From positions 1-43,102 of the forward strand of contig JAHFMN010000004.1 in assembly GCA_023264445.1 (NCBI GenBank): a stretch of 43,102 nt of DNA. Direction: 5' to 3'. Made by a program: the position numbers and the translations under genes. The notes below the pieces were generated by a model that saw only the letters and a list, made by a program, of their open reading frames with translations, had not been told where the DNA came from and ran no database searches. The DNA comes from Candidatus Kaiserbacteria bacterium. Lineage in GTDB: Bacteria > Patescibacteriota > Minisyncoccia > Phycocordibacterales > Phycocordibacteraceae. How positions within the stretch are numbered: the first letter of the stretch is position 1; every line of letters begins with the position of its first letter. This document shows, piece by piece, positions 6,869 through 32,727 of this stretch.

Positions 6869-8092
6869 ATGCCCGAGGATAAGGAGCGCGACCATAAGAA
6901 GCTCGGTAGAGAACTCGATTTATTCACTTTCTCCGAACTCGTAGGGTCCGGTCTTCCGCTGTGGACACCGAAAGGGACTGTCTTGCGCCAGGAGCTCGAT
7001 ACATTCGTTTGGGAACTCCGGTCGAAATACGACTATCAGCGCGTTACTATTCCGCATATCACAAAGCGCAGTCTGTATGAGACTTCCGGCCACTGGGAAA
7101 AATTCGCCGATGATTTGTTTAAAATAACCGCACGCGAAGAACGCGAGTACGCGCTCAAGCCGATGAATTGTCCACATCATACGCAGATATTTGCACGTCG
7201 ACCGCACTCCTATCGCGAAATGCCACAACGATATGCAGAAACGACGATGGTATACCGCGATGAACAATCGGGAGAATTGAATGGCCTTACGCGAGTTCTC
7301 TCTATTACACAAGACGATAGTCACGTCTTCTGCCGTACGTCTCAGATCAAGGAAGAATTTCTTAAGATTTGGAATATCATCGATACCTTTTACAAGCAAT
7401 TTGGATTTACTGATCTTAAAGTACGGCTTTCCTTCCATGATCCAAAAGCACCTGAGAGGTATCTCGGTACGCCTGAAATATGGAAAAATGCTGAGGACGC
7501 TTTGCGGCAAATAGCCCAGGAGCGCGGCGCAGATTCTTTCGAAGCGCCCGGTGAAGCAGCATTGTACGGACCGAAACTTGATTTCATTGCAAGTGATTCC
7601 ATCGGCCGCCAGCACCAAGTCGCAACCATTCAGCTCGATTTAAATCTTCCTGAACGATTCGATCTGTATTGTATTAATGAAAAAGGAGAACATGAGCGAA
7701 TCGTCATGATTCATTCCGCAATTATGGGTTCTATCGAACGCTTCACTGCCGTCTTGCTTGAACATACGGCTGGAATTCTTCCGCTCTGGCTTGCGCCGAT
7801 ACAAGCGCGCGTACTCCCGGTGTCTGAAAAGCACACAGCATATGCGAACGAAGTTATGAGTGAATTGAAAACAGCGAATATTCGAACAGACATAGATGAT
7901 GCGAATGAATCACTTGGAAAAAAAATCCGCAATGCAAAAACAGAAAAAATCCCCTATTTAATCGTTGTCGGCGACGCGGAAGTTGAAGCAAAAACAATCT
8001 CAATCGACAGCCGCGATCACGGAAAACTCGACACGATATCAGTTGCGGACTTTATGGTCCGCGTGACAGACGAGATTAAGCGCCGAGCGTAG
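6869..8092 (+). CDS. thrS: Threonyl-tRNA synthetase lacking the N-terminal TGS/editing domains
   Basis: Begins at RDHKKLGRELDLF. Has LKPMNCPHH, YRDEQSGELNGLTRV, HSAIMGSIERF and the anticodon domain SLGKKIRNA. About 407 aa. Confidence 0.96.
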   Translation: MPEDKERDHKKLGRELDLFTFSELVGSGLPLWTPKGTVLRQELDTFVWELRSKYDYQRVTIPHITKRSLYETSGHWEKFADDLFKITAREEREYALKPMNCPHHTQIFARRPHSYREMPQRYAETTMVYRDEQSGELNGLTRVLSITQDDSHVFCRTSQIKEEFLKIWNIIDTFYKQFGFTDLKVRLSFHDPKAPERYLGTPEIWKNAEDALRQIAQERGADSFEAPGEAALYGPKLDFIASDSIGRQHQVATIQLDLNLPERFDLYCINEKGEHERIVMIHSAIMGSIERFTAVLLEHTAGILPLWLAPIQARVLPVSEKHTAYANEVMSELKTANIRTDIDDANESLGKKIRNAKTEKIPYLIVVGDAEVEAKTISIDSRDHGKLDTISVADFMVRVTDEIKRRA

Positions 8093-10115
8093 CGAGTGCA
8101 CGAGTGAGTGCAAGCTTCGCACCGGTGACGCCAGCAGCATAACTTGAATCGATCGCAGTCGTGAGCGAGGCGACGAGCTTTTCCAGAGTCGGAGTATCGA
8201 GGCGTGCGGTCAGTCGTGCGACATGCTGGTCGCAGGAAGTTCCGTCAACACGCGCGCGATATGCATCGTCAAGAAGGCAAACTGCCTCGGTGATGAGATG
8301 CTCCGGAGCACCATTGCCGCGCACGTGCTGTCGCAGTCCTGCAAAGACTGCCGCGCGGTCGCCCTCGAGAAGCGCCGCAATAAAACCGCGAATGTGTGCC
8401 GGCGCAGCGCTCGGTTCGACGGCGACATCAGCAGAAATCGTCCCGTCGTTTTCATGCATCGGTTCAACCTGCTCATACATCGGCTCGACGTTATGCTCCA
8501 CCTCCTCTGGAACCGGTTCAGTGGGTGCCGCATGCGAATGACGTGCGAGACCTTTCACGATGTCATCGATTGAGAGTGCACCGCCTTGTGCATAGGATTT
8601 GAATCCGATGTAGGGAGAATAGCCCCGTACAGAATCGGGGAACTCCCGCTGCAGTGGCGCTGCTGCGCGCATTGGAGCGGGAGCAGGCACGGGAACGGAT
8701 ACATTGAGCGCTGCTTTGATGCGGGCACTGAAGCTTTGTATACGACGATTCATTACCGGTGCCGCACCGAAGAGGACGAGATATGCAAGTGCAAGCGACC
8801 AGCCGATAAGCGCGATCCAGTAGATCACCGTACCAACAGGGCCGAGGTCAAGACCGGTGTATGGAATCTGCGAAAGATAGAGGAATGCAAGCGGCTGTGA
8901 GCCCACGTGCGGCAGAATGCCGAGAACGAAGTTAGGTGTGATGGTGCCACCACCGCCTCCACCACCGCCGCCTCCTCCTCCGGACGGAGGAGTGCCTCCA
9001 CCACCGCCGCCTCCGCCGCCAGAAGGATTAACCGTTACTGAAGCAGTACATGTTGCCGTCGCACCCGCTGCACTGGTAGCGGTGCCGGTGTATGTAACGC
9101 TCGTCGCCGGCGAGGCGGTGACACTCCCTGCAGCGACCGGCGAAACAGAACCGACGCCGTTATTGATAGAAAATGTCGCCGCGTTTGCAGTCGTCCACGA
9201 AAGAGTGATCAAATCTCCGACCATAATCGAGGAAGGAGCGGACGTGAGCGTACAGACCGGCGCGTTCGGCGCTGGAGGTCCGTATGAACAAGAACCATCA
9301 TCGACAGTCGCACTTGGATTGAAATTAGTTGCAGCAGAATCCGTGCATCCAAGGACGGGAGACGGCGGAGTCGTAGTAACCTCTATCGATACAGTACAGG
9401 TGACCAAACCACCAAGACCTCTCGCGGTACCGGTATAGGTCACACTCGCGGAGGGGGAGACGGAGATGCTTCCGGCGGCCACTGGAGTTACGGCAAAAAT
9501 GCCATGGTCGATTCCGAATCTAGTCGCGTTCGTCGTCGTCCATGAAAGCATCGCTGAAGAACCCGCCTGGATGGAAGAAGGATTTACTGAGAGCACACAG
9601 GTCGGTGCTGCAGGTGGAGGTGGAGAAGGCGGATAATCACAAGAACCATCATTGACGGTCGCGCTCGGATTGAAATTGTTCGCATTTGGGTCCGTGCAAC
9701 CGGAGATTGGTGCGGGCGAAGTCACGAGGGTTTCAGGACCGCCAACGTCGGGAGTGCCCACACCAGCATCGGGAGTTCCGGTGTCGACACCAACAGTAGG
9801 AGTTCCAGTATCACCGCCGCCGAAACCAACACTAGTTGGGGTGCCTGCGTCGCCACCGCCAAAGCCAGCATCGGTTGGTGAGCCTGCGTCGCCACCGCCG
9901 AAACCGACACCCGCGCCGGCATCACCGCCGCCGAAACCGGTATCGCCGCCTGCGTCGCCACCGCCAAAGCCAGCATCTCCTCCAGCATCACCGTCAGCAA
10001 GGGCATGGGGAATCCCAAACGGCACCAACTCATTGAGTTGTTGCAATACAAACCCTCGCGAAAACGCGAGTATCATAAAAAGTAATATGAGAGTGAATGA
10101 ATACCGGAAAGGCAT
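8076..10115 (-). CDS. Large cell-surface/membrane protein: signal peptide, FGGGD repeats, two GCTD..NFNPSAT..DGSC repeats with beta-rich Ig-like domains, Gly linker, IPYTG motif, TM helix, long cytoplasmic tail
   Basis: Start moved to MPFRYSFTLILLF (CAT 10113-10115) because the upstream extension overlaps the next gene. Domain order read from the translation. Confidence 0.85.
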   Translation of the reverse strand: MPFRYSFTLILLFMILAFSRGFVLQQLNELVPFGIPHALADGDAGGDAGFGGGDAGGDTGFGGGDAGAGVGFGGGDAGSPTDAGFGGGDAGTPTSVGFGGGDTGTPTVGVDTGTPDAGVGTPDVGGPETLVTSPAPISGCTDPNANNFNPSATVNDGSCDYPPSPPPPAAPTCVLSVNPSSIQAGSSAMLSWTTTNATRFGIDHGIFAVTPVAAGSISVSPSASVTYTGTARGLGGLVTCTVSIEVTTTPPSPVLGCTDSAATNFNPSATVDDGSCSYGPPAPNAPVCTLTSAPSSIMVGDLITLSWTTANAATFSINNGVGSVSPVAAGSVTASPATSVTYTGTATSAAGATATCTASVTVNPSGGGGGGGGGTPPSGGGGGGGGGGGGTITPNFVLGILPHVGSQPLAFLYLSQIPYTGLDLGPVGTVIYWIALIGWSLALAYLVLFGAAPVMNRRIQSFSARIKAALNVSVPVPAPAPMRAAAPLQREFPDSVRGYSPYIGFKSYAQGGALSIDDIVKGLARHSHAAPTEPVPEEVEHNVEPMYEQVEPMHENDGTISADVAVEPSAAPAHIRGFIAALLEGDRAAVFAGLRQHVRGNGAPEHLITEAVCLLDDAYRARVDGTSCDQHVARLTARLDTPTLEKLVASLTTAIDSSYAAGVTGAKLALTRALATLGA
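9805..9995 (-). repeat. Five coding GFGGGD(A/T)G repeats
   Basis: Repeated (c/a)ccgcc(g/a)aa(a/g)cc units on the + strand; translation GFGGGDAG x4 plus GFGGGDTG. Confidence 0.85.
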
Positions 10116-10167
10116 GTGTTTCCTATTTCCGAAATACCTTCCTCTGAAGATATGCCGGAAAAGGGAT

Positions 10168-10201
10168 CCGTTAGGAACCATGCGAGCATGATTCCTAACG
10201 G
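10168..10201. repeat. 34-bp intergenic near-palindrome (hairpin)
   Basis: ccgttaggaa-c-catgc-ga-gcatg-a-ttcctaacgg; fully paired on the minus strand with one G-U pair. Confidence 0.8.
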
Positions 10202-10230
10202 TCCGAAATGAAGTAGAATAGCTGTCGCTG

Positions 10231-11163
10231 TTACGGCGCAATTGCCGAAACCACCATCGTGCAGTTCTTCCATTCCTCGGGGAAAAGCCAGATACGACGA
10301 AATTCATCGGACACGGCCGGAGACTTGTAGTCTGCCGGCCAGATCGTCTCGACGATGTACGCCCGCTGAGTCGCGGAGAGGGCCTTGATGGCAACACCGC
10401 TTGCAAGACGTATCGTACCGAGATCCTCCGCGACGGTGAGCATCACCGGGTCGAGAAGACGTATGAACACGACGCTGTCCCCTGCGGGCGGTAACTTGTA
10501 CAGCTCGGGCCCAAGCGTTCGCGATACGGCGTCTGTCTTGTAGGCATCCGCGCTTCTCGTGTTCTTACCGTCGAGCTCGATGGGACGTCGCGCGGCACTG
10601 CTATCGCGATTTGCGGCGGCGGTAATCAAGACTTCCGCCCGTGCCCATAAGTCCGCAGGGATGTTCTTCTGCGGATAGCTCCTGGTCATGAACGTTCGTT
10701 CGTTTGGACAGCTGCCACTTGCGACCGGCGTTGGCGTCGGATTCGGCGTGATGATACTGCTCCAGTTGTTGCAGACGTCCGGAAGGACGACAACGTACGT
10801 TTTGTCCTCCCAGACCACCTGCCACCGCTCTGCCGGTGCGGCATATTCCATGCCACGCGTCGGCGAACCGAAAGCAACCACCACGTCTTGATGAACGACA
10901 CTCCTCTTTGAAATCATCGCCGAGAAGCGGTCCCCAACGAAGATACGGGTCTTCTGTCCCGGCTGCTCCGTTGCCTTTACGAGGAGATCAACGACCGGCT
11001 TCGGGAAGCCGAGCTTCGTAAACGCGCTCTCACGCGTCTTCATTGCTTCCGCACGCGAGGTCGCATAGGGATCAGCACCAAAGTGCTGCCATTTGAATTC
11101 GGCGTGAGCCGAATTCGCTAGCACCGCAATTGCGAGCGCCAGCATTGCCACGATGAACTTCAT
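10231..11163 (-). CDS. Secreted hypothetical protein
   Basis: 310-aa ORF with a classic signal peptide (MKFIVAMLALAIAVLANSAHA-E) and an AAGGAG RBS. No family recognised. Confidence 0.8.
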   Translation of the reverse strand: MKFIVAMLALAIAVLANSAHAEFKWQHFGADPYATSRAEAMKTRESAFTKLGFPKPVVDLLVKATEQPGQKTRIFVGDRFSAMISKRSVVHQDVVVAFGSPTRGMEYAAPAERWQVVWEDKTYVVVLPDVCNNWSSIITPNPTPTPVASGSCPNERTFMTRSYPQKNIPADLWARAEVLITAAANRDSSAARRPIELDGKNTRSADAYKTDAVSRTLGPELYKLPPAGDSVVFIRLLDPVMLTVAEDLGTIRLASGVAIKALSATQRAYIVETIWPADYKSPAVSDEFRRIWLFPEEWKNCTMVVSAIAP

Positions 11164-12773: not shown

Positions 12774-14840
12774 TTAGACGTCGAGATTCGCTAGTTTGGC
12801 GTTAGATTGGATGAATGACTTGCGCGAAGCGACATCAGTGCCCATAAGGATATCGAAAATACGGTCAGCGGCTTCGGCATCTTCTACATTTACTTGCTTC
12901 AAGACGCGTCGCGCCGGGTCCATCGTCGTCTCCCACAGCTCGCTCGGGTTCATCTCTCCAAGACCTTTGTAGCGCTGGATGTTTACCTTCGGCGCTTTTC
13001 TTGCTGCAACAGCTTCTTCCTCCACGACTGATTCTTCGCTTTCAAGCATATTCTCTGAGACTTCCGAGGCAGCGGCACCGAGTTCTTTCAATACCTCTGC
13101 TTTTTCTTTATCCGAATACGCGTACGCAACCGCCTTTCCTTTCGTAATCTTGTAGAGCGGCGGCTGAGCGATATAGACGAAGCCACCGTCGATGATCGGC
13201 CGGAAATGGCGATACAAAAGTGTGAGGAGGAGTGTGCGGATGTGCGCACCGTCGACGTCAGCATCGGTCGCAATGATGATCTTGTGGTAGCGGAGTTTTG
13301 ACAAATCAAAGACATCTCCGATGGCAGTGCCCATCGCGATGACCAGCGCGCGAATCTCGACCGAGGCAAGCATGCGATCGATGCGTGCACGCTCGACATT
13401 CAGAATCTTGCCGCGAAGCGGAAGAATCGCCTGGGTGCGTCGATCCCTTCCCTGCTTGCTTGAACCACCTGCCGAATCGCCCTCAACGATGAATAGTTCA
13501 CCTTCTTCGGCACTTTTAGTCTGGCAATCCGCGAGTTTGCCTGGAAGCGTCATACCCTCCAACGCACCCTTACGCAGCACGGAGTCCTTTGCCGCCTTAG
13601 CCGCCTTACGCGCCTTGAGGGCAAGAAGGACTTTGTTCACGATGGCGCGTGCGTCATCCGGATTCTCCTCGAGAAATGCACCGAGCGCCTCACCGAAGAC
13701 CGTCGCGACCGCGCCCTGTGCTTCAACCGAGCCGAGTTTTGCCTTGGTCTGCCCTTCAAACTGAATTTCGGGAAGCTTCACCGATACAACCGCCGTGATA
13801 CCTTCGAGGACATCGTCGCCAGTGAAGTTTTCATCCTTTTCCTTCAATAAGTTCGCATTCCTGCCGTACGTATTGAGAGAACGCGTAAGCGCCGTCTTGA
13901 AACCGGTGATGTGGGTACCACCCTCGCTGTTATAGGTATTGTTCGCGAATGCGGTGATGCGTGATGTGATGTCGTCCACATACTGGAGCGCTACCTCTAC
14001 TGAAACGGTATCGAGCTGGCGATCGACATAAAAGATATTCTTATGCACCGGCGTCTGGTGCTTGTTGTGATACGCGACGAGCGATTTCAGACCTCCTTCA
14101 AAATAGAACGTTATCGATGGCACGCCGAGCGCATAGTCACGCAAAAAGAGTTGCTCCCATTTTGAAATCACATCGGCCCCCGCACGCGCATCAACGAGAG
14201 AGATACGAGTTCCCTTCACGAGGTATGCCTGCTGACGCAGGTGTGCGAGAACCTTTTCCCAGTTCCACTCAACGCCTTCCTTGAAAATCGTTGCATCTGG
14301 CTTGAAGAGCACGATGGTGCCGTGTTCTTTTGTCGCACCGACTTTTTTCACCTTCGCGAGCGGCTTGCCTATCTTATATTCCTGGGTATGCATGCCGCCG
14401 TCCTGATGCACGACGACTCTGGTATGGACAGAAAGCGCGTTCACTACCGATGCACCGACACCATGAAGGCCGCCGGATACCTTGTACCCGGAATCTTCAC
14501 CGCCGAATTTTCCACCAGCGTGGAGCGTGGTCATAATGGTCTCGAGCGCAGAGACCTTTGTCTTCGGATGAATACCAACCGGGACGCCGCGGCCATTGTC
14601 GGCGACGCGCACATAGCCGTCGGGCAAGAGCGCAACCTCGATGTCGTCTGCGTGTCCACCCATCGCCTCGTCGCGTGCATTATCAAAAATCTCCCAGATG
14701 AGGTGATGGAGGCCATCGGGACCGGTCGTCCCGATGTACATGCCTGGGCGTTTGCGCACCGGTTCGAGTCCTTCGAGGACAGTAATAGACGAGGCATCGT
14801 AGGCCTTCTGTTTAGGCTCTTTTTCAGTGGTTTTAGCCAT
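12774..14840 (-). CDS. gyrB: DNA gyrase subunit B
   Basis: LEGLEPVRKRPGMYIG, SGGLHGVGASVVNALS, EGDSAGGS, ILPLRGKILN, TDADVDGAHI, QRYKGLGEMNP. Confidence 0.97.
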   Translation of the reverse strand: MAKTTEKEPKQKAYDASSITVLEGLEPVRKRPGMYIGTTGPDGLHHLIWEIFDNARDEAMGGHADDIEVALLPDGYVRVADNGRGVPVGIHPKTKVSALETIMTTLHAGGKFGGEDSGYKVSGGLHGVGASVVNALSVHTRVVVHQDGGMHTQEYKIGKPLAKVKKVGATKEHGTIVLFKPDATIFKEGVEWNWEKVLAHLRQQAYLVKGTRISLVDARAGADVISKWEQLFLRDYALGVPSITFYFEGGLKSLVAYHNKHQTPVHKNIFYVDRQLDTVSVEVALQYVDDITSRITAFANNTYNSEGGTHITGFKTALTRSLNTYGRNANLLKEKDENFTGDDVLEGITAVVSVKLPEIQFEGQTKAKLGSVEAQGAVATVFGEALGAFLEENPDDARAIVNKVLLALKARKAAKAAKDSVLRKGALEGMTLPGKLADCQTKSAEEGELFIVEGDSAGGSSKQGRDRRTQAILPLRGKILNVERARIDRMLASVEIRALVIAMGTAIGDVFDLSKLRYHKIIIATDADVDGAHIRTLLLTLLYRHFRPIIDGGFVYIAQPPLYKITKGKAVAYAYSDKEKAEVLKELGAAASEVSENMLESEESVVEEEAVAARKAPKVNIQRYKGLGEMNPSELWETTMDPARRVLKQVNVEDAEAADRIFDILMGTDVASRKSFIQSNAKLANLDV

Positions 14841-14897
14841 GAATCACGTACCCCTATTTTATCACAAAATCCTTTGTTTGTGCTACGCTAGACCATT

Positions 14898-16052
14898 ATG
14901 GATATCAGTATTCCAAGGCCGGAGGAGGAGCGGCTACGCAAGGAACTCGCGGGGAGAAATGACCTTGAAGCCGCTCGCATCCAGCGATATCTTTCGATGC
15001 CGGACCTCTCGCGTACAGAGGGCTCTCCTCTCCACGAGATTGTCGAGCGCGTGAAGACAGTTCCTTCGTTTGCTGGATTCGACATTATTGATATCCCAGA
15101 AATCGTGCCGGCAGACATCTCATTCGACCTGTTCGACTTCCCTGCTGACCATCCAGCGCGCTCAAAGTCCGATACCTACTATGTCGATGACCAGCACATC
15201 CTGCGCACACACGATACCGTCTTCTGGTATTACTATCTCAATCATCCGGAAATTAAAGCGCGCATCGCGCGCGGCGAGAGTATGGGCGCGCTCTGCTATG
15301 GCAAGGTCTACCGCAAGGATGAGATTGATAGCCGCCACATGAATATCTTCCATCAGATGGGTGGGTGGTATATCGCTCCGCAATCCGAAAAAATCGAGCC
15401 AGAAGATCTCAAGAAGGCCCTCGGCGATATTGTGCGGACCGTTTTCGGTCCTGCCGCTGGCTATCGGATAAATGACGATATCTTCCCGTACACTGACCCT
15501 TCGTTTGAGGTGGAAGTGAACGTCAAAGGCACTGCCGCCGAAGGGCCAGCGAAGGGAGAATGGCTTGAAATCCTTGGAAGCGGCATGCCGAAGGCATCGA
15601 CACTCGCAAAGCTCGGAGTCACCGGCTACCACGGTTGGGCATTCGGATTCGGCATCGAGCGACTTGCCATTATCAGCATGCAGCTCCCAGATATTCGGCT
15701 CTTGTGGTCAAGAGACGAGCGCGTGAAGAAACAGCTCAAGCTTGGACAGAAATTCATTGAAGTGAGCAAATATCCGCCGGTGGTACGCGATATCTCATTT
15801 ATCGTGGAGAAAGGATTTGTTCCTAACAATTACTTTGATCTTGTGCGGGATGTGGCGGGCGACCTCGTTGAGCAGGTAGAACTACTCGATACGTACGAAA
15901 ATGAGGCGAAATTGGGTGCCGGCAAGGTCAGCTATGCGTATCGGATCACCTATCGCAGCATTGAGCGTACGCTCACGAACGAAGAAGTGAATGTGCTTCA
16001 CGCCGAACTCGAGAGCGCCACAGTAAAGAATTTTTCGGCAACCATCCGCTAA
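14898..16052 (+). CDS. pheS: Single-chain (mitochondrial-type) phenylalanyl-tRNA synthetase: alpha catalytic domain fused to the FDX-ACB anticodon-binding domain
   Basis: FDLFDFPADHPARSKSDTYY, LRTHDT, motif 2 YRKDEIDSRHMNIFHQ, FPYTDPSFE, motif 3 GWAFGFGIERLA, then SKYPPVVRDISF...YRITYRSIERTLTNEEVN (PheT C-terminal domain). 384 aa. Confidence 0.92.
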   Translation: MDISIPRPEEERLRKELAGRNDLEAARIQRYLSMPDLSRTEGSPLHEIVERVKTVPSFAGFDIIDIPEIVPADISFDLFDFPADHPARSKSDTYYVDDQHILRTHDTVFWYYYLNHPEIKARIARGESMGALCYGKVYRKDEIDSRHMNIFHQMGGWYIAPQSEKIEPEDLKKALGDIVRTVFGPAAGYRINDDIFPYTDPSFEVEVNVKGTAAEGPAKGEWLEILGSGMPKASTLAKLGVTGYHGWAFGFGIERLAIISMQLPDIRLLWSRDERVKKQLKLGQKFIEVSKYPPVVRDISFIVEKGFVPNNYFDLVRDVAGDLVEQVELLDTYENEAKLGAGKVSYAYRITYRSIERTLTNEEVNVLHAELESATVKNFSATIR

Positions 16053-21380: not shown

Positions 21381-23291
21381 TTAGAATTCTTGGAAGAATG
21401 GCTCGACGTTCACGGTCACCTGCCGCACGATTGCCGCGCCGCCGCCGGTTGGGGTGCAAGAGATGCTGTAGGTCGCCTGGCCAGTCACGATAATCGTTGC
21501 CGATCCAGATATGCTTGACTGCGAGAAACCGTTTGGACCAGTAACGTTGCAGCTACTCATCAGAACCGAGCTCCAGGAGAGAATGCTCGAACCGCCCGAC
21601 ACCGTCACGCGCGGCGGTTCCGCACCGATGTTCACCTCCGGCTGAATCACCGTTACGGTTACTTGCGCCGGTGCCGAGGTACCCGACGCATTTGAACAGG
21701 TTATTTGGTACGTTGAGTCCTGCAAGAGCACACCGGTCGAGACGCCGCCCGGAGGATTGGTTGTCGCACCGCCCGTCGAGAATCCTCCAGCCGACGTGCA
21801 GGAAGTCGCATTGGTAGATGACCAGAAGAGCTTGGTCGACTGGCCTTGATTTATGGGGTTCGGGCTTGCAGAGAGTGTCACAGTCGGCGGACAGGTGGAA
21901 TTGGATGGGACAGCAGCGGAGCAAGAACTGTCGCATTGAACCGTGCCGGTATTCGTCTGGCCGCATGAATTTGCTGCGGACGAACAAACAGCTCCTTGGT
22001 TCGCGACGCATAGCACCGTGACCACCTTCCATGCTCCGCAGTTGTTGCCCTCGTTAGACTCATCAATAGAACCGGCCCATGAACTGTTGTTGTCAGCGCA
22101 CGCGCGCACGTTGTAGGTACCGGCTGCTGTAAAGGTGTATGAGCCAGAAAGACCGGTGGAAGCGCCGGAGCTAAGGGAGGAGACGGTGTTGGCATTTACC
22201 ATCGCAATCGTCACCGTCTTGGCGCTGTTAGCAACCTGGAAGATGTTCGGGAAATTCGAGGCCGAACCATCACCGATATTGGAGACGGTTGCTGAGAAAG
22301 ACTCGCTTTGTCCGGCCACAACAGACGTGGGAGAAATAGTAGTATCCCCTGCCGTGAGATCAGCGAGCGAAACCGGGATCTGAACGCAGCCGGTTCCGTC
22401 TGCGCTCGGCTCCGTTCCTGATGGACAGGTAACCACGTGACTGATGGTCGCCGTGTTAGATGTTCCTCCGGGACCGGTACAAGTATTGCTCCAGGTGTAG
22501 GTCCCTGGATAGGTGGGTGTCGCTGGTAGTGAGCCAGAGGTTCCTGCTGCCCATGGATTGGTAACGAGACCGTCCGGACGCACTCTCGTTACCGTGCAGG
22601 ATGTTGCGTTCGTCGAGCTCCATGAGACGGTAAACGTTGTGCCGGAATCGGCGGTGCTAACTGATTGACTGATTGAGGCAGTCGGAGCCACACAACTCGA
22701 ATCGGACGGGGGTGTCGAAGAACATGAACCATCGCACTGGATAGTGCCGTTCGATTGCGTCTGGCCGCAAGAATTTGGTGAGGATGCACACGCGGAACCG
22801 TATCCGGCCGCACATGCTGGACTCACGTACACTGAGCACGTCTCCATACCAATGACGTCACTGCCACCCAACGAATACACCGATATTACTTTGTTTTGTG
22901 TACCAGAAGAACCATACACGTTCGTCTCGTAGGTGCGGTAGTACGGCTCGGCATCAATGTGGTATATACCGGCATTGATGCCCTGTAGGGAATACGGGTT
23001 CGTAACAGTCCACGTAACGGTATCACCGACTTTTGGATTTGTTGGCGAAACTGCACAGATCGCAGAGCACATGCCCGTACCCGCATTATGTTCGTAGCCG
23101 GATTCGCAGGAGGCTGGGACTATTACACCGCCTTCCGCCCCCCGAGGAGAAAGCGACACAAAGCCTACTTCAGAAGAATGTACCGGCGTATGGGCCAGCA
23201 TCAGGGACTGCAAGGAGCCGATAACGCCAAGAAAAAGCAGGAGCGACCCGAGAGATACCGCCAGTTGCCGAGTTCGCAGGCGAACCTTCAT
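21381..23291 (-). CDS. Large secreted/surface protein with a CARDB-like domain, two six-Cys repeats and several beta-rich Ig-like modules
   Basis: Start MKVRLRTRQLAVSLG (TM/signal). ADLTAG...SATVSNIG...IDESNEGNNC is CARDB-like. Repeats of the form C..N.G..C.S..NSCGQT..GT.QCD.SCS...P.(D/N)S.C. Confidence 0.85.
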   Translation of the reverse strand: MKVRLRTRQLAVSLGSLLLFLGVIGSLQSLMLAHTPVHSSEVGFVSLSPRGAEGGVIVPASCESGYEHNAGTGMCSAICAVSPTNPKVGDTVTWTVTNPYSLQGINAGIYHIDAEPYYRTYETNVYGSSGTQNKVISVYSLGGSDVIGMETCSVYVSPACAAGYGSACASSPNSCGQTQSNGTIQCDGSCSSTPPSDSSCVAPTASISQSVSTADSGTTFTVSWSSTNATSCTVTRVRPDGLVTNPWAAGTSGSLPATPTYPGTYTWSNTCTGPGGTSNTATISHVVTCPSGTEPSADGTGCVQIPVSLADLTAGDTTISPTSVVAGQSESFSATVSNIGDGSASNFPNIFQVANSAKTVTIAMVNANTVSSLSSGASTGLSGSYTFTAAGTYNVRACADNNSSWAGSIDESNEGNNCGAWKVVTVLCVANQGAVCSSAANSCGQTNTGTVQCDSSCSAAVPSNSTCPPTVTLSASPNPINQGQSTKLFWSSTNATSCTSAGGFSTGGATTNPPGGVSTGVLLQDSTYQITCSNASGTSAPAQVTVTVIQPEVNIGAEPPRVTVSGGSSILSWSSVLMSSCNVTGPNGFSQSSISGSATIIVTGQATYSISCTPTGGGAAIVRQVTVNVEPFFQEF

Positions 23292-23322
23292 AGGTTGTAT
23301 ACCCAAAAGGTACCACGCGCCT

Positions 23323-24132
23323 TCAGCTAGCACTGCCAGTATCCCCAGTAGAGAGGAGGCGCATATTCTCCTCAAGCGAGGACTTCATTTTCAAAAACCC
23401 TTCGGTGTAGATGTCCGGATTGTTCCCGGGATACGCAGCTCCCCAACTCGCTTCAGACATTGTGGCGAGTATGGAGAGCGCCTTAGCGAATGCCTCCTTC
23501 GCGCCTTTCTTATCATCCATGTTCAGGAGCGCGACGCCGAGCGAGTTCCACAGCCATGGATTGTTCGGCTCAATCTTGAGCCCTGTGCGCGCAGTATCGC
23601 GCGCCTCTGCATACTTCCCTTCTTGGAAATAAATCCACGCGAGATCATTATTTCCCGCCCAGCTCTCCGGCTTCCACGCCAGAAATGCTTTGAAATCCGC
23701 CTCTGCTTTTGCCAGCTGGCCGCTGTAGCCGTAAATGAGTCCGCGCACGTAATACGAGCGGCCGAAGTCCGGATGAAGAGCGAGTTCTGCATTTATTTCC
23801 GCGAGCGCATCGGGAAAATCGCTGCGGATAAAATAGACGCGCGCTAGCTGATAATGCGGGCCTTCCATACTCGGATCAAGCGTGAGCGCTTTGCGGAAAT
23901 ATGCTTCTGCTTTTTTTAAATCATACGCGCCACCACCGAAATAATAGTTCCCCATATCAAAAAAGAGATTCGGATCGGATGGAGAAAGGACCGAGGCGAG
24001 CATGCCCGCGTGCAGCTGTTGCCATACGAACCGACCGGCCGCCGCGTTCTGTCTTGCTACGAAAATGCTTGCTATACAGAGCCCAAGTACGAGGATGCTC
24101 CAGAGAAAGGCTTTTTTAATTTCCTGTCGCAT
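23323..24132 (-). CDS. TPR-repeat protein with an N-terminal membrane anchor
   Basis: Tandem TPR-like helices (AEAYFRKALTLDP, YYVRGLIYGYSGQLAKAEADF, WNSLGVALLNM). TAAGAT 6 nt upstream. Confidence 0.88.
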   Translation of the reverse strand: MRQEIKKAFLWSILVLGLCIASIFVARQNAAAGRFVWQQLHAGMLASVLSPSDPNLFFDMGNYYFGGGAYDLKKAEAYFRKALTLDPSMEGPHYQLARVYFIRSDFPDALAEINAELALHPDFGRSYYVRGLIYGYSGQLAKAEADFKAFLAWKPESWAGNNDLAWIYFQEGKYAEARDTARTGLKIEPNNPWLWNSLGVALLNMDDKKGAKEAFAKALSILATMSEASWGAAYPGNNPDIYTEGFLKMKSSLEENMRLLSTGDTGSAS

Positions 24133-27231: not shown

Positions 27232-27313
27232 GCATGGAAGTATACCAAGCCACATTAAGTAGCGCGAAGGGAGTGTGGACAAGAAGTGGCATGGCGCTGG
27301 TATCATCAGACCC
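27232..27313. promoter_or_regulatory. Divergent promoter between the precursor and YcaO-1
   Basis: TGG-TATACT (-, 27239-27247) and TGG-TATCAT (+, 27298-27306), each 7 nt before an ATG. Confidence 0.6.
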
Positions 27314-28753
27314 ATGTTGAAAGAGGTCGCTCCATTTGAGCGTGTATGGCTTGCCTTGCATGGCTCATCTTACGTTGCGAAAGCTATTGTCTCATTCATA
27401 AAGTTCTTAGAACGGCATCTCGGCGCTGAATTCATATATGACCAAAAACATATTGGGTATCAATCCCTTGAATTGGCGAAATTATTTGAACTTGCCGAGA
27501 CACTCCGGACACGCGGCATTATTCAGTCATACGGGAAAAATGAAGATCTAAGCGATGAACCACGAATTGCGTTTTGGTATATTAAATATCTTGATAACAA
27601 AAATGATGGGTCTGCTGGAGTATCCATGGATGATCATCCGCTGGCATTTACCAAGGCGCTTGCGGAGGCCATTGAACGACGTGTATGGACCCTGAACGAT
27701 CGGTTTGCGTCCCTGAAAATCGCCACAACTGCTGAAGCTGAGGGAAACAAAAAGTTTATATCTCCTCAACGCTTTGCCGGTTATAGTATTTCACAACGGG
27801 AAAAGGACCCATCTCTGACAATCAAGTCGACTGATTCATTTACTTGGGTTAAAGGCTACTCCTGGGTGGAAGAAAGACAGGTGTGGATTCCATTACAGAT
27901 TGTGAGCGTCAATGGAGGTCAAACTCAATCGAAAGAACCTCGTATTCGCGCAACAATAACAACTGGCATTGCGACACATCCACTTCGAATACGCGCCCTT
28001 CTTTCTGGCGCATTAGAAGTCATCGAACGTGATGCGTATATCATCACCTGGCTTAACCAGCTATCGCCGCCACGCATTGATATCGATGAATTATCAGAGA
28101 GGAGCAAATCACTCGCCCAACTCATTGCGCGATGCCGGCGCTATCGCCTTCTGCCTCATGTACTCCAGCTCCCCACCGATGCCCCGACGTATGCAGTCTG
28201 TGCCGTGATTGAGGACGCGACGGGAACGGCTCCTCGATTTTCCTTCGGCACCAAGGCAGATCGTGACCCAGCGGCTGCAGCAGAAGGAGCGCTCCTTGAG
28301 GCGCTCCGCACGCGTATAGGCACGCGGCGACAATTCATGTCAGATCATGATGATTGGGATCCGAATACACCCCTTACCGAAATTTCTGGCTATAAACGCA
28401 TGAGGTACTGGTCCGAGGGAGACCGTATGAATCATCTCTCCTTCCTTATCCAAGGGGAAATCCTTCCGCTTGTAAAAGAAGAGTGGGATTCCGACACTGA
28501 TGAGGAACACTTCTCAAGAATTATACGATGGTGTCGAAAACAAAAGTATGAGCTTGTGTCAGTGAGTTATACAGATGCCTTGGACAACTTACCCGGCTGG
28601 CACATAGAGTTCGTCGTCATTCCAGAACTTCAGCCCCTCCATTACAGTGAAAAACTATTGTGTCTTGGGGGAGAACGATTGAAGGAGATTCCGCGACAAT
28701 TTGGATACCCTGCGCGAGAACCTTATCTTAGTGATCCTCATCCTTTCGTATAA
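27314..28753 (+). CDS. YcaO-family protein 1 (azoline-forming cyclodehydratase type)
   Basis: KALAEAIERR, TTGIATH...SGALEVIERDA, EGALLEAL, C-terminal PHPFV. Start placed at MLKEVAPF. Confidence 0.92.
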   Translation: MLKEVAPFERVWLALHGSSYVAKAIVSFIKFLERHLGAEFIYDQKHIGYQSLELAKLFELAETLRTRGIIQSYGKNEDLSDEPRIAFWYIKYLDNKNDGSAGVSMDDHPLAFTKALAEAIERRVWTLNDRFASLKIATTAEAEGNKKFISPQRFAGYSISQREKDPSLTIKSTDSFTWVKGYSWVEERQVWIPLQIVSVNGGQTQSKEPRIRATITTGIATHPLRIRALLSGALEVIERDAYIITWLNQLSPPRIDIDELSERSKSLAQLIARCRRYRLLPHVLQLPTDAPTYAVCAVIEDATGTAPRFSFGTKADRDPAAAAEGALLEALRTRIGTRRQFMSDHDDWDPNTPLTEISGYKRMRYWSEGDRMNHLSFLIQGEILPLVKEEWDSDTDEEHFSRIIRWCRKQKYELVSVSYTDALDNLPGWHIEFVVIPELQPLHYSEKLLCLGGERLKEIPRQFGYPAREPYLSDPHPFV

Positions 28754-28755
28754 CT

Positions 28756-29484
28756 ATGAACGCCCTTTCGAGATTCATTGCACGCATTCATGCCTCTATA
28801 CGAGGAGTGGACATGGCGCCACACGGAGTACCTCTACGAGAAAAAGAAGTTCCTCGAGGTCTGCATAAAGAATATCCGCGCATGCCGCGCATTGAGCTTC
28901 CTGCACCAGAAACATTAACTCTTCCACTCAGTGAAGCACTGCACAACCGCGCATCATTCTCCGTGTGCGAAGATAGTCGACAGTTCTCATCGGGAGAATT
29001 AGGTTCGCTACTCGGAAATGCACTTGGCATGCGCACCGCTATGCGACGGCAGTACCCTTCGGGTGGAGGCCTTTTCCCGATCGAGACATATCTCATCGGG
29101 ACAGTGCTTGAAAGGTATCCATCCGGGGTATTTCACTATCATCCCAAGGCCCATGCACTCGAATTTTTATGGGAAACTTCCCCTTCATTTACTATGGCGG
29201 AAATCATCCGGGCTGGTGACACACCGTTCGCACCTATTCTTGTCATATTCACCAGCGTATGGAGCCGCTCCAGCGTAAAATACGCCGAGCTTGCATACGC
29301 GCATGGTCTCATTGAGGCCGGTCATATGGCCGAAAACATATTGCTCGCGGCAACTGCTCTCGGAATACATGCTCGGCCATTGGCCGGATTCTACGACGAA
29401 GCAGTCAGTACGCTGCTTGATCTTCCGAAGGATATAGAACAACCGGTATACGGCGTCCTTCTCTGTCCGTCGGCAATGCCTTGA
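28756..29484 (+). CDS. SagB/ThcOx-type FMN-dependent azoline dehydrogenase 1
   Basis: RRQYPSGGGLFPIETY, GVFHYHP..HAL, the Lys-Tyr pair in SVKYAE, IEAGHMAENI. Confidence 0.92.
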   Translation: MNALSRFIARIHASIRGVDMAPHGVPLREKEVPRGLHKEYPRMPRIELPAPETLTLPLSEALHNRASFSVCEDSRQFSSGELGSLLGNALGMRTAMRRQYPSGGGLFPIETYLIGTVLERYPSGVFHYHPKAHALEFLWETSPSFTMAEIIRAGDTPFAPILVIFTSVWSRSSVKYAELAYAHGLIEAGHMAENILLAATALGIHARPLAGFYDEAVSTLLDLPKDIEQPVYGVLLCPSAMP

Positions 29485-30275
29485 TGCTAGAATGCGTACC
29501 GTACATGGTTCCACGTCTTTCATATCTTATCTGTACCACTCCCCGATCAGGTAGCAATCTTCTCTGCACGACTCTCTGGCAAACCGGGATTGCGGGACGG
29601 CCACAGGAATACTTCATGCCAGGGCTCCGCGATGAATTCATCCGGTATGCCCAACTCGGTGTGAGTGAGCATCCGGATTATGTACGCGCCGTTATCCGCG
29701 CCTCGACCACTCCAAACGGTATCTTCGGAACAAGTGTACATGCTTTCCAAACTGCACTCGTCATGAAGCGGATACAGCATGCAGAAGGCAAGGAGTTTTT
29801 TTCATTTCGAGAAGCAGTAGAAACTGCATTTCCGAACATCAAGTACATCTTTTTAACACGAGTAGACAAGGTCGCACAGGCCGTTTCCTATTATCGGGCA
29901 GTCATGACCGGAGAATGGCGACGCTTCAGCGATGAACACATTCCCGAGTCTAATAAAACTATCAAGATGGACCACTATGGCATTAAAAAATGCCTTGAGT
30001 TGCTCGAACAATCGGATGCTTATTGGGAAAAATTCTTTGAGGAACACGAACTGTCCCCGTTGCGGATTACTTTTGAAGATCTCACACGGAAGTATGGAAA
30101 GACCGTTCAGAATATTCTCTCCTATCTTGAGCTTCCTGCCGTCCCTATACCCCCTCCGGCAACAAAGAAAATTTCAGACGAACGTTCCAAATCCTGGGAA
30201 GAAGAATTTATACAACTTGAAAAAAAGAACCCCATACACACCGAGCCGACTAACTACGCATGGGCACCGTTTTAA
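29484..30275 (+). CDS. Stf0-family PAPS-dependent sulfotransferase
   Basis: YLICTTPRSGSNLLC (5'-PSB loop), GRPQEYF, FLTRVDKVAQAVSY (3'-PB). ATG overlaps the SagB-1 TGA; alternative start 29505. Confidence 0.9.
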   Translation: MLECVPYMVPRLSYLICTTPRSGSNLLCTTLWQTGIAGRPQEYFMPGLRDEFIRYAQLGVSEHPDYVRAVIRASTTPNGIFGTSVHAFQTALVMKRIQHAEGKEFFSFREAVETAFPNIKYIFLTRVDKVAQAVSYYRAVMTGEWRRFSDEHIPESNKTIKMDHYGIKKCLELLEQSDAYWEKFFEEHELSPLRITFEDLTRKYGKTVQNILSYLELPAVPIPPPATKKISDERSKSWEEEFIQLEKKNPIHTEPTNYAWAPF

Positions 30276-30283
30276 TGGAGTAC

Positions 30284-31030
30284 TTATTTTGAAAGCATAA
30301 GCGCATACACGAGTGATTCCTGTGTGCCATCAATATCAAGAAGAGAATGGAGGGCTTCATCCTGCGTTCCTCCCATTCCGGTAACACCGACACCACACGG
30401 AGCTGCCGAAAGATACATCCCTTGCCCAATGTGCCCAGCTTCGAGCAATACGTAGCGGTACGCTCGCTCACCATATTTCATGGCCGTGCGGTTAAACACC
30501 GCAGTAACGAGTACCGCCATGGAACAATCCTTTGCCCACGGATAGGTGAACATCTGCAAAATGTCTTGGCTTGAAAAAGCACGGACGCGCAATACATTGA
30601 GTGCGTGTTCTTTGACATTGAAATGATATACACCCGGCGCGATTCCATTTTCTTTCTTAAGAGATAGCACATATACTTCAAGTGGAAACCGCATACCCCC
30701 AGAAGGTTGCGCTCGAAGTTTTACTCCACTTGTATGCCGCACGGTATCTTGAAGCCCGCAAGAATATTTCAGTATTGCTGAAAGATCGGCAATGGAAATC
30801 CCATGTTCATGTGCCCCATTCACTGATTTTCTATTGGCGACGATGTCAAAAAAATTTGTGGGTGGAGGCGCCGTTTTTGTGAGCGGTATTGTGCGGACCC
30901 CCGCATAGGATTTGTAATAAATTGTCTTCCATTCTTTCGGCCAATCTTCAGTTCGCTGGAATAAGCGAGAGTCAGTTCCTGCCGCATGATCGGCACTTCT
31001 TCTGTGGTATTGGTGAAAAAAAAATGGCAT
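30284..31030 (-). CDS. SagB/ThcOx-type FMN-dependent azoline dehydrogenase 2
   Basis: LRAQPSGGMRFPLEVY, GVYHFNVKEHAL, AMKYGERAYRY, LEAGHIGQ. Start MPFFFH chosen; 31084 is possible. Confidence 0.92.
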   Translation of the reverse strand: MPFFFHQYHRRSADHAAGTDSRLFQRTEDWPKEWKTIYYKSYAGVRTIPLTKTAPPPTNFFDIVANRKSVNGAHEHGISIADLSAILKYSCGLQDTVRHTSGVKLRAQPSGGMRFPLEVYVLSLKKENGIAPGVYHFNVKEHALNVLRVRAFSSQDILQMFTYPWAKDCSMAVLVTAVFNRTAMKYGERAYRYVLLEAGHIGQGMYLSAAPCGVGVTGMGGTQDEALHSLLDIDGTQESLVYALMLSK

Positions 31031-31046
31031 GGAAATGTGTCGGTTG

Positions 31047-32627: not shown

Positions 32628-32727
32628 ACCTTTATTGATGATAATATAACACGACCAGTCTTTTGAGACTTTAGGGGGTCCCTCGGGGCACAATCTCGCC
32701 CCGTCCGACCGATTGATGTTTCCTTAG

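What the first reader, a model, noticed from the sequence alone, without database searches (positions are those of the whole stretch)
14898..16052. Mitochondrial-type monomeric PheRS in a bacterium
Seen: a 384-aa protein with the PheS catalytic core fused directly to the ferredoxin-fold anticodon-binding domain, lacking the N-terminal coiled coil, with no pheT beside it. Known: bacterial PheRS is normally an (alpha-beta)2 heterotetramer, and the alpha+B8 single chain is the organellar (FARS2/MSF1) architecture, which lacks the beta-subunit editing site. Segments such as GWAFGFGIERLA...PDIRLLWSRDER and SKYPP..RDISF...YRITYRSIERTLT resemble the organellar enzymes. Inference: relevant to where organellar PheRS came from, and to genome streamlining or horizontal exchange.
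Basis: partly seen in the sequence, partly recalled or inferred. Interest (0 to 1): 0.72.

Follow-up and report, generated by a model that had tools for sequence, protein, structure and literature searches.

The report
Single-chain PheRS of Parcubacteria (CPR)
This gene encodes a one-piece phenylalanyl-tRNA synthetase built like the mitochondrial enzyme; it is the conserved, gyrB-linked form in a huge group of tiny-genome bacteria (Parcubacteria), which appear to do without the usual beta subunit and its proofreading site.

Summary
ORF 14898-16052 (+) encodes 384 aa: a PheS class II core fused to an FDX-ACB (B8-like) domain. It has no long N-terminal coiled coil, and no pheT lies in the 43 kb window. 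The predicted fold matches human mitochondrial PheRS over its full length (TM 0.73-0.75).

It is not a one-off. At least 442 species-level Parcubacteria/Paceibacteria genomes carry close relatives, almost always beside gyrB. A second Parcubacteria subfamily (40-51% identical) sits in the same slot.

The Phe-pocket, ATP and anticodon-G34 residues are intact. The query's subfamily has moved an active-site acidic residue (FHQxE/D-G becomes FHQxGG, together with THT becoming THD); the two sites are perfectly anticorrelated in about 309 sequences.

Domain by domain, it is no more mitochondrial than bacterial. In trees it forms its own bacterial clade, separate from eukaryotic and huge-phage enzymes and from NCBIfam's SrmL. 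All single-chain forms split from the sampled canonical PheS (100%).

The most likely reading is the housekeeping PheRS of a streamlined lineage. Genome-wide absence of pheST could not be tested. I found no published description. The link to the origin of organellar PheRS remains open.

The parts
14898..16052 (+). Complete CDS of the single-chain PheRS (384 aa + stop)
14898..15002 (+). Short N-terminal segment (aa 1-35, two predicted helices) in place of the ~90 aa coiled coil of bacterial PheS
15009..15734 (+). Class II PheS catalytic core (aa 38-279, PF01409)
15207..15218 (+). THDT loop (T104-T107). D106 is the relocated acidic residue; other PheRS have T/N/M/S here.
15303..15323 (+). Motif 2 strand KVYRKDE with the conserved Arg139
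15348..15365 (+). FHQMGG. Gly155 replaces the Glu/Asp of FHQxE/D-G found in canonical, mitochondrial, phage and CPR2 enzymes.
15483..15503 (+). FPYTDPS Phe-pocket motif (FPFTEPS in E. coli); identical in 194 of 201 CPR1 sequences parsed
15528..15557 (+). Lineage-specific 10-residue insertion GTAAEGPAKG in a beta hairpin (low pLDDT); present only in the closest relatives
15633..15662 (+). Motif 3 region GWAFGFGIER, with the specificity Ala (E. coli A294 equivalent) and the motif 3 Arg255
15735..15764 (+). 10-residue linker LKLGQKFIEV between the PheS C-terminal motif and the ACB domain
15765..16049 (+). FDX-ACB (B8-like) anticodon-binding domain (aa 290-384). D331, Y333 and S345 align to human D364, F366 and S375, which read G34. 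C-terminal R384 probably corresponds to human R414.
14841..14897 (.). 57 bp divergent intergenic region shared with gyrB. There is no room for a T-box or leader, and Rfam finds nothing.
12774..14840 (-). gyrB, the conserved neighbour (within 3 kb of the PheRS gene in 70 of 80 related loci)

Best explanation
The gene encodes the housekeeping phenylalanyl-tRNA synthetase of a Parcubacteria (Paceibacteria, CPR/Patescibacteria) bacterium, in a single-chain alpha-B8 format.

Shown: the catalytic core keeps the ATP-binding and Phe-binding motifs. The fused ferredoxin-fold domain keeps the residues that read G34 of the GAA anticodon. The whole protein is predicted to fold like apo human mitochondrial PheRS. 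The gene is a vertically inherited core gene in a fixed slot beside gyrB across two deep Parcubacteria subfamilies.

Inferred: it works as a monomer. Like mtPheRS, the ACB domain would swing from a closed to an open position to dock tRNA-Phe. It is the only PheRS in the cell. It has no post-transfer editing, because no B3/B4 domain is present.

In the query's subfamily the acidic residue that normally follows FHQx in motif 2 has been replaced by Gly, and an Asp has appeared in the neighbouring TH(T/S)S loop. I read this as a compensated rewiring of the pocket that binds the substrate's alpha-amino group, not a loss of function.

Evolutionarily, the Parcubacteria enzymes, a few horizontally acquired copies in non-CPR bacteria, the huge-phage enzymes, SrmL and the organellar enzymes share one alpha-B8 fusion ancestry relative to the sampled canonical PheS/PheT. 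The Parcubacteria clade is neither inside the eukaryotic clade nor its demonstrated source.
For: Architecture. Fold: AF2 pLDDT 86.6, pTM 0.84. Foldseek top seven hits are all human mtPheRS; the six closed-form entries give TM 0.73-0.75 over about 400 columns, while canonical alpha chains match only the catalytic half.

Active site: KVYRKDE, FPYTDPS, GWAFG and GFGIER are conserved.

Anticodon readers: query D331, Y333 and S345 align to human D364, F366 and S375 and are invariant in 20 relatives. Their roles are given in PMC7540514.

Compensatory swap: 176 sequences have D+G, 13 have N/T+D, and all 120 CPR2 or non-CPR sequences keep the motif-2 Asp, with T/M/A at the loop site in the 116 where it parsed. 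No mixed states occur.

Spread: more than 7000 protein clusters, 442 species-representative genomes, and a second subfamily in Wolfe-, Staskawicz-, Nealson- and Portnoybacteria.

Core-gene synteny: gyrB lies within 3 kb in 70 of 80 loci, and the order PheRS-gyrB-secE-nusG-rplK recurs in Staskawicz- and Doudnabacteria-like genomes.

No second PheS domain and no PheT B3/B4 or B5 domain occurs in the window or in 1.19 Mb from 80 genomes. No viral contig carries this subfamily.

Trees: canonical versus single-chain split is 100% for the catalytic domain and 75% for ACB. CPR1 monophyly is 100%. The clade CPR1+CPR2+non-CPR+P0127/P0130 has 90-100% support.
Against: Genome-wide absence of canonical pheS/pheT was not tested; only about 2% of each of 80 genomes was seen. 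If pheT sat at a random position, about 1.7 hits would be expected, so finding none is weak evidence.

The protein scores below the curated cutoffs of TIGR00469, TIGR00468 and NF051887 alike.

Loss of the motif 2 acidic residue could instead mean altered substrate chemistry. Relatives such as P0130 and true SrmL are accessory ligases of unknown substrate.

Monomeric state, activity and lack of editing are inferences. The trees are NJ only. The canonical sequences sampled come from two phyla and one phage, with none from CPR or Alphaproteobacteria.
Confidence: 0.78

Rival explanations
1. It is an accessory PheS-like ligase (like NCBIfam's 'PheS-related mystery ligase SrmL' or the P0130-type gene that heads a biosynthetic or immunity cluster). 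It would coexist with a canonical pheST elsewhere in the genome and act on a different substrate or serve as a resistance copy.
For: The SrmL model scores nearly as well as pheS_mito (219 against 234 bits) and is the best model for the catalytic domain alone. Motif 2 has lost its acidic residue. Relatives P0130, P0125 and P0416 sit in accessory or mobile contexts. Genome-wide pheST absence is untested.
Against: The score is below the SrmL cutoff (219 < 300), and the protein never groups with true SrmL P0270 (0% bootstrap). It is present in a fixed housekeeping slot beside gyrB across hundreds of species with 0.5-1 Mb genomes, at 62-85% identity. The Phe pocket and G34 readers are intact. The Gly substitution is always paired with a new Asp nearby. 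No second PheS or PheT appears in any sampled locus.
Confidence: 0.08
2. The architecture arose independently within CPR, by an in-frame deletion in a pheS-pheT operon joining the end of pheS to the B8 domain. Its resemblance to FARS2 would then be convergent.
For: Domain-wise profile scores do not favour mito models over bacterial ones. The ACB is 35% identical to Listeria PheT B8, against 40-45% to mt-type ACBs. The junction is a simple end-to-start join that a single deletion could produce. No CPR canonical PheS or PheT was available as a comparator.
Against: All single-chain catalytic domains (CPR, phage, eukaryote, SrmL) separate from canonical PheS of gamma-proteobacteria, Bacilli and a phage with 100% bootstrap under two distance models. 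The ACB domains separate from canonical B8 at 75%.
Confidence: 0.1
3. Parcubacteria acquired the gene from a eukaryote (a nuclear gene for organellar PheRS) or from a virus carrying it, and it displaced pheST.
For: CPR bacteria have other eukaryote- or archaea-derived aaRS (PMC5370408). Huge phages and giant-virus-like contigs carry pheS_mito-type enzymes that could act as vectors. Relative P0121 passes the pheS_mito cutoff.
Against: The CPR clade is not nested in the eukaryote/phage assemblage in any tree. It lacks the 30-60 aa insertion after motif 2 seen in the longer (opisthokont) eukaryotic sequences aligned; Vitrella has only a short one. The catalytic domain is as close to canonical PheS as to eukaryotic enzymes (29-35% against 29-33%). 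Synteny across two deep subfamilies implies that any transfer predates Parcubacteria diversification. No viral contig holds the CPR type.
Confidence: 0.07

Closest known systems
Mitochondrial/organellar PheRS (human FARS2, yeast MSF1; NCBIfam TIGR00469 pheS_mito; 'PheRS-M' in AARS Online)
   Same: A single chain made of a PheS catalytic core plus a C-terminal FDX-ACB (B8-like) domain. No coiled coil and no B3/B4 editing domain. GWAFG motif 3. G34-reading Asp, aromatic and Ser residues. The predicted structure superposes on closed apo human mtPheRS (TM 0.73-0.75).
   Different: Scores below the TIGR00469 cutoff (234 < 258). Forms a separate bacterial clade. Has no transit peptide and lacks the 30-60 aa insertion after motif 2 seen in the longer eukaryotic sequences. 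FPYTDPS replaces FPFTHPS. The motif 2 acidic residue has moved to the THD loop. It is encoded in a bacterial core-genome slot beside gyrB.
Canonical bacterial PheRS (alpha-beta)2: PheS (TIGR00468) + PheT (TIGR00472)
   Same: The catalytic motifs 1-3 and the Phe pocket. The C-terminal DIRLxWSxDxR-type motif of PheS. The ACB domain matches the last 100 positions of the pheT_bact profile (75 bits).
   Different: No N-terminal coiled coil. The B8 domain is fused in cis. B1-B7, including the B3/B4 editing site, are absent. No adjacent pheT, and the gene is not next to infC-rpmI-rplT. TIGR00468 scores 149 < 237. It separates from canonical PheS at 100% bootstrap.
NCBIfam NF051887 'PheS-related mystery ligase SrmL'
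   Same: The same two-domain single-chain layout in bacteria. The profile aligns over query residues 60-374 (219 bits).
   Different: Below the cutoff (300). True SrmL (P0270, 415 bits) has a divergent active site (PHQVD, HPYT, GLASG) and never groups with the CPR clade. I could not establish the function or context of SrmL; no paper was found.
Huge-phage and giant-virus-like single-chain PheRS (metagenomic contigs of 160-634 kb, e.g. LR745206)
   Same: Compact 345-370 aa alpha-B8 proteins without the eukaryotic insertion. Most of those tested pass the pheS_mito cutoff.
   Different: 34-38% identical in the catalytic domain. They group loosely with eukaryotic enzymes, not with CPR. They are encoded among phage genes such as terminase, ClpP, RNA ligase and PNKP. 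No viral contig carries the CPR subfamily.

Membership tests
Mitochondrial-type single-chain PheRS (TIGR00469 / PheRS-M) | One polypeptide: PheS class II core directly followed by an FDX-ACB (B8-like) domain | tested here: met
   PF01409 at 38-279 and PF03147 at 290-384
Mitochondrial-type single-chain PheRS (TIGR00469 / PheRS-M) | Lacks the N-terminal coiled coil of bacterial alpha and any B3/B4 editing domain | tested here: met
   E. coli PheS aligns from its residue 94. Only two short helices lie in aa 1-35. No B3/B4 or B5 match in the protein or the window.
Mitochondrial-type single-chain PheRS (TIGR00469 / PheRS-M) | Whole-protein score at or above the curated TIGR00469 cutoff (258.35 bits) | tested here: not met
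   234.2 bits. A 63%-identical relative, P0121, scores 264.3 and passes.
Mitochondrial-type single-chain PheRS (TIGR00469 / PheRS-M) | Full-length 3D similarity to solved mtPheRS | tested here: met
   Foldseek top hits 5mgw, 8p8x and 3cmq; TMq 0.73-0.75; about 400 aligned columns; E 1e-30
Mitochondrial-type single-chain PheRS (TIGR00469 / PheRS-M) | Phylogenetic placement within the organellar clade | tested here: not met
   The CPR clade is separate from the eukaryote+phage assemblage in all NJ trees. It shares only the deeper single-chain versus canonical split.
Mitochondrial-type single-chain PheRS (TIGR00469 / PheRS-M) | Active as a monomer; charges tRNA-Phe without a beta subunit | not testable with these tools
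   Needs biochemistry. Supported only indirectly by intact catalytic and G34-reading residues.
Canonical bacterial PheS (TIGR00468) | Score at or above 237.45 bits, with the N-terminal coiled coil | tested here: not met
   149 bits; no coiled coil
Canonical bacterial PheS (TIGR00468) | Partner pheT gene (usually adjacent) encoding B1-B8 | tested here: inconclusive
   Absent from the window and from +/-10 kb in 80 related genomes. The rest of each genome was not searchable.
SrmL (NF051887) | Score at or above 300 bits | tested here: not met
   219 bits; true member P0270 scores 415
SrmL (NF051887) | Groups with true SrmL in phylogeny | tested here: not met
   0% bootstrap for CPR+Bacc including P0270

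The most novel reading that the evidence does not exclude
The organellar PheRS of eukaryotes (FARS2/MSF1) was not assembled in the eukaryotic lineage from an alphaproteobacterial pheS/pheT. Instead it descends from a pre-existing prokaryotic or phage single-chain PheRS, of which the Parcubacteria housekeeping enzyme is the surviving cellular representative. Parcubacteria would then be the only known cellular lineage outside organelles that runs translation without a PheRS beta subunit or cis editing.
Probability: 0.15. Interest if true: 0.85.

Novelty: new variant of a known kind. Interest (0 to 1): 0.62.

Why it matters
PheRS (alpha-beta)2 is treated as universal in bacteria, and pheS and pheT are standard phylogenomic and completeness markers.

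If Parcubacteria, one of the largest bacterial radiations, use a single-chain enzyme with no beta subunit, four things follow:
- pheT-based markers are systematically uninformative there.
- These cells lack the B3/B4 proofreading site against Tyr and meta-Tyr, which bears on translational fidelity in ultra-small symbionts.
- The smallest known PheRS format is not an organelle-only invention. That gives a concrete prokaryotic and phage comparison set for testing where FARS2/MSF1 came from.
- The naturally relocated active-site carboxylate, and the Doudnabacteria 'mini-beta (B2 only) + alpha-B8' operon, are ready-made experiments in minimal PheRS design.

Tried and rejected
1. Using full-length profile scores (pheS_mito 234 > pheS 149) as evidence of mitochondrial affinity. 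Rejected after domain-wise scoring showed the excess is just the added ACB domain.

2. The first rooted tree used three 'catalytic-only' representatives as canonical PheS. The alignment showed they are truncated mt-type proteins, so I replaced them with E. coli, P. aeruginosa, A. baumannii, Staphylococcus, Listeria and a Ruminococcus phage PheS/PheT.

3. Reading P0125 ('Oligoflexia') as a non-CPR sister family. Revised when its own relatives turned out to be a second Parcubacteria subfamily; P0125 was merely the 50%-cluster representative.

4. The L017 solo FDX-ACB ORF as a possible relic of pheT. It is a degenerate partial ACB copy with no PheT affinity.

5. Same-genome test for pheT. It remains untested.

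6. Literature. Eight searches and four papers read found no description of a CPR or bacterial housekeeping single-chain PheRS, and nothing on SrmL.

7. ACB-only phylogeny for relationships within the single-chain family. It is unresolved (96 columns).

8. Viral-contig scan for the CPR subfamily. None found.

9. Rfam scan for a T-box or leader upstream. None found.

Full report
**1. Observation**

The ORF is real: 14898..16052 on the + strand, ATG start, 384 aa.
- Pfam places the PheRS class II core (PF01409) at residues 38-279 (E 1.2e-48) and the ferredoxin-fold anticodon-binding domain (PF03147) at 290-384 (E 1.4e-22).
- E. coli and other bacterial alpha subunits align only from about their residue 94. 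The ~90 aa coiled coil is therefore replaced by about 35 residues that AlphaFold predicts as two short helices.
- tblastn with each domain and with full-length E. coli PheT finds no other PheS- or PheT-like sequence in the 43 kb window.
- The window is otherwise housekeeping: dnaE, a class II aaRS, sortase, gyrB, a GT2 glycosyltransferase, tRNA-Thr, EF-Ts, a release factor, L25, class I aldolase, split transketolase, RpiB, Rpe, GAPDH, NusB, RNase HII.

**2. Whose gene, and how common**

The large homologue search returned 7277 proteins at E <= 1e-10. The best 120 are 74-85% identical, about 384 aa, and all carry both domains. The named ones come from Patescibacteria/Parcubacteria.

A scan of one genome per GTDB species found 442 genomes encoding a close relative. 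The informative names are Kaiser-, Colwell-, Nomura-, Zambryski-, Vogel- and Doudnabacteria and Paceibacterota.

In the 80 loci fetched (1.19 Mb):
- gyrB lies within 3 kb in 70, and in 60 it has the same divergent arrangement as the window.
- The GT2, orf221 and EF-Ts genes recur downstream.
- The gene is never next to infC-rpmI-rplT.

The closest representative outside this set, P0125, turned out to stand for a second subfamily of ~380 aa proteins. These come from Wolfe-, Staskawicz-, Nealson- and Portnoybacteria and are 40-51% identical to the query. In a Staskawiczbacteria contig the order is PheRS-gyrB-NUDIX-secE-nusG-rplK, and Doudnabacteria-like genomes show PheRS-gyrB-secE-nusG-rplK. 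The gene is therefore a vertically inherited core gene in a fixed slot across much of Parcubacteria.

**3. Is it a working PheRS?**

*Catalytic and specificity motifs.* These are conserved: KVYRKDE (motif 2 Arg139), FPYTDPS, GWAFG and GFGIER (motif 3 Arg255). From my own knowledge of E. coli and T. thermophilus PheRS, the FPF aromatic pair and the Ala of GxAFG (E. coli A294) form the phenyl-ring pocket.

*Anticodon recognition.* In human mtPheRS, G34 of tRNA-Phe is read by Asp364, Phe366, Ser375 and Arg414, and D364G abolishes activity (PMC7540514). In the HMMER alignment, Asp364, Phe366 and Ser375 align to query D331, Y333 and S345. All three are invariant among 20 relatives, as is the C-terminal R384. 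The R384-R414 equivalence is my inference.

*Fold.* AlphaFold gives pLDDT 86.6 and pTM 0.84. The top seven Foldseek hits are all human mtPheRS. The six closed apo entries give TM 0.73-0.75 over about 400 columns; the tRNA-bound open form gives TM 0.57. Canonical alpha chains cover only the catalytic half.

**4. A derived active-site rewiring**

Canonical, mitochondrial, phage and CPR2 enzymes have FHQx(E/D)G in motif 2. The query has FHQMGG. Sequences with that Gly always have THD in the upstream loop, where others have TH(T/N/M/S).
- Among the close relatives, 176 have Asp+Gly and 13 have Asn/Thr+Asp, with none mixed. In 12 more sequences my regex misread the loop.
- All 120 CPR2 or non-CPR sequences keep the motif-2 Asp, with Thr/Met/Ala at the loop site in the 116 where it parsed.

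From published T. thermophilus structures (my knowledge, not tested here), His178/Ser180 and Gln218/Glu220 together bind the alpha-amino group of Phe. The pattern therefore looks like a relocated carboxylate rather than a lost one. The events are few and phylogenetically structured, so this counts as suggestive covariation.

**5. Relationship to known families**

*Profile scores.* The full-length scores are pheS_mito 234 (cutoff 258), SrmL 219 (cutoff 300) and pheS 149 (cutoff 237), so the protein belongs to none of them by the curated cutoffs. Domain by domain the mitochondrial preference disappears:

| Domain | SrmL | bacterial pheS / pheT_bact | pheS_mito |
|---|---|---|---|
| Catalytic | 160 | 150 (pheS) | 143 |
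| ACB | 46 | 75 (pheT_bact) | 82 |

*Pairwise identity.*
- The catalytic domain is 38-42% identical to P0125, P0127 and P0130, 34-38% to the better-matching huge-phage proteins, 29-35% to eukaryotic enzymes and 29-33% to gamma-proteobacterial PheS.
- The ACB domain is roughly 30-45% identical to other single-chain ACBs (40-45% to the best mt-type ones), 35% to Listeria PheT B8 and 27% to E. coli PheT B8.

*What the other representatives are.*
- The 420-870 aa representatives are eukaryotic mtPheRS: lancelet, shark, nematode, choanoflagellate, chytrid, Aspergillus, Tilletiaria, Vitrella.
- The 345-370 aa ones whose context was checked sit on huge-phage or giant-virus-like contigs of 160-494 kb. 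A 634 kb GenBank phage also has one.

*Trees.* NJ trees with 200-300 bootstraps under two distance models give:
- All single-chain proteins separate from canonical PheS (gamma-proteobacteria, Bacilli and a Ruminococcus phage with a canonical pheST pair) at 100% for the catalytic domain and 75% for ACB.
- CPR1 monophyly is 100%.
- The non-CPR copies (P0125, P0411, P0412, P0416, P0417) are monophyletic and sister to CPR2 at 99-100%.
- CPR1+CPR2+non-CPR+P0127/P0130 has 90-100% support.
- True SrmL never joins them.
- The eukaryote+phage assemblage is poorly resolved.

The 30-60 aa insertion after motif 2 in the longer (opisthokont) eukaryotic sequences is absent from the CPR, phage and accessory forms; Vitrella has only a short one.

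The non-CPR copies lie in accessory or mobile contexts: integrase and transposases for P0416, miscellaneous metabolism genes for P0125. P0130 heads a conserved cluster with two DCD-like genes, an MccF-like S66 peptidase and an ATP-grasp enzyme.

**6. Interpretation**

The best reading is the housekeeping, probably sole, single-chain PheRS of Parcubacteria. One alpha-B8 fusion ancestry appears to be shared by the CPR, accessory bacterial, phage and organellar forms. The CPR clade is neither derived from within eukaryotes nor shown to be their source.

The weakest link is that I could not scan whole genomes for pheST. Only about 2% of each of 80 genomes was visible, so the absence seen there is weak evidence. 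Monomeric state, lack of editing and activity are all inferred.

**7. Novelty**

Eight full-text searches and four papers read found no description of a bacterial or CPR housekeeping single-chain PheRS.
- AARS Online lists the form only as 'PheRS-M, mitochondrial-like'.
- Mukai et al. note canonical PheRS-beta, often lacking B2, in other CPR lineages.

Public pipelines label these proteins 'PheS alpha chain' or 'hypothetical'. The kind of enzyme is known. Its role as the core enzyme of a major bacterial radiation, its own clade outside every curated model, and the relocated acidic residue make it a new variant of a known kind.

Noticed in passing
L076:9529-9888 (+); also L090:6001-6399, L091:6001-6402 and a JGI 730 kb contig (P0310): In a Doudnabacteria-like lineage, a stand-alone 117-133 aa tRNA_bind protein (PheT B2-like, 38% identical to E. 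coli PheT residues 42-133) lies 2-15 bp upstream of the single-chain PheRS gene in three of four loci (about 100 bp in L076), followed by gyrB-secE-nusG-rplK. This is a two-gene 'mini-beta + alpha-B8' PheRS operon. The family has at least 655 members, all short among the 120 listed. It is absent from the window and from the other 79 closest loci.
   Followed up: partly
window 27275-32693 (low-GC island, GC 0.47-0.50 against about 0.54): Two YcaO genes (27275-28753 +, 31047-32693 -), each paired with a nitroreductase-family (McbC-like dehydrogenase) gene (28756-29484 +, 30284-31084 -), flank a Stf0-type sulfotransferase (29481-30275 +). It looks like an azoline-forming RiPP cluster, possibly acquired horizontally, in a CPR genome. 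No precursor peptide was sought.
   Followed up: no
L017:4657-4944 (-): A 95-codon ORF between gyrB and the PheRS gene encodes a degenerate partial FDX-ACB domain (only the C-terminal ~60 residues). It is closest to single-chain ACBs and shows no match to E. coli PheT. It is probably a decayed partial duplication.
   Followed up: yes
L094:3613-7046 (Ruminococcus phage NatCom_28775, PV036440.1): A complete ~80 kb phage genome carries an adjacent canonical pheS (350 aa) and pheT (788 aa) pair, both annotated only as hypothetical proteins. This contrasts with the single-chain forms in huge phages.
   Followed up: partly
L085:9463-16091 and L086:154-6782: A 456 aa single-chain PheS-like ligase (P0130) heads a conserved cluster: an unknown 274 aa protein, two DCD-like genes, an unknown 351 aa protein, an MccF-like S66 peptidase and an ATP-grasp enzyme. 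This suggests an aminoacyl-nucleotide-type biosynthesis or immunity locus.
   Followed up: no
L081, L084, L087, L088, L095: Single-chain PheRS of 345-370 aa, most of those tested passing the pheS_mito cutoff, recur on huge-phage or giant-virus-like contigs of 160-634 kb. One lies 1.2 kb downstream of a GluRS/GlnRS-type gene (L087).
   Followed up: partly
window 15528-15557: A 10-residue insertion GTAAEGPAKG in a beta hairpin of the catalytic domain is invariant among the closest relatives (74-85% identity) but absent from other Parcubacteria. AlphaFold confidence is low there.
   Followed up: no
window 8076-11163 (-) and 21381-23375 (-): Large ORFs with no Pfam match (776 aa and 310 aa, overlapping by about 175 bp as listed) lie next to a sortase and CARDB-domain proteins. 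They may be sortase-anchored surface proteins typical of CPR episymbionts.
   Followed up: no
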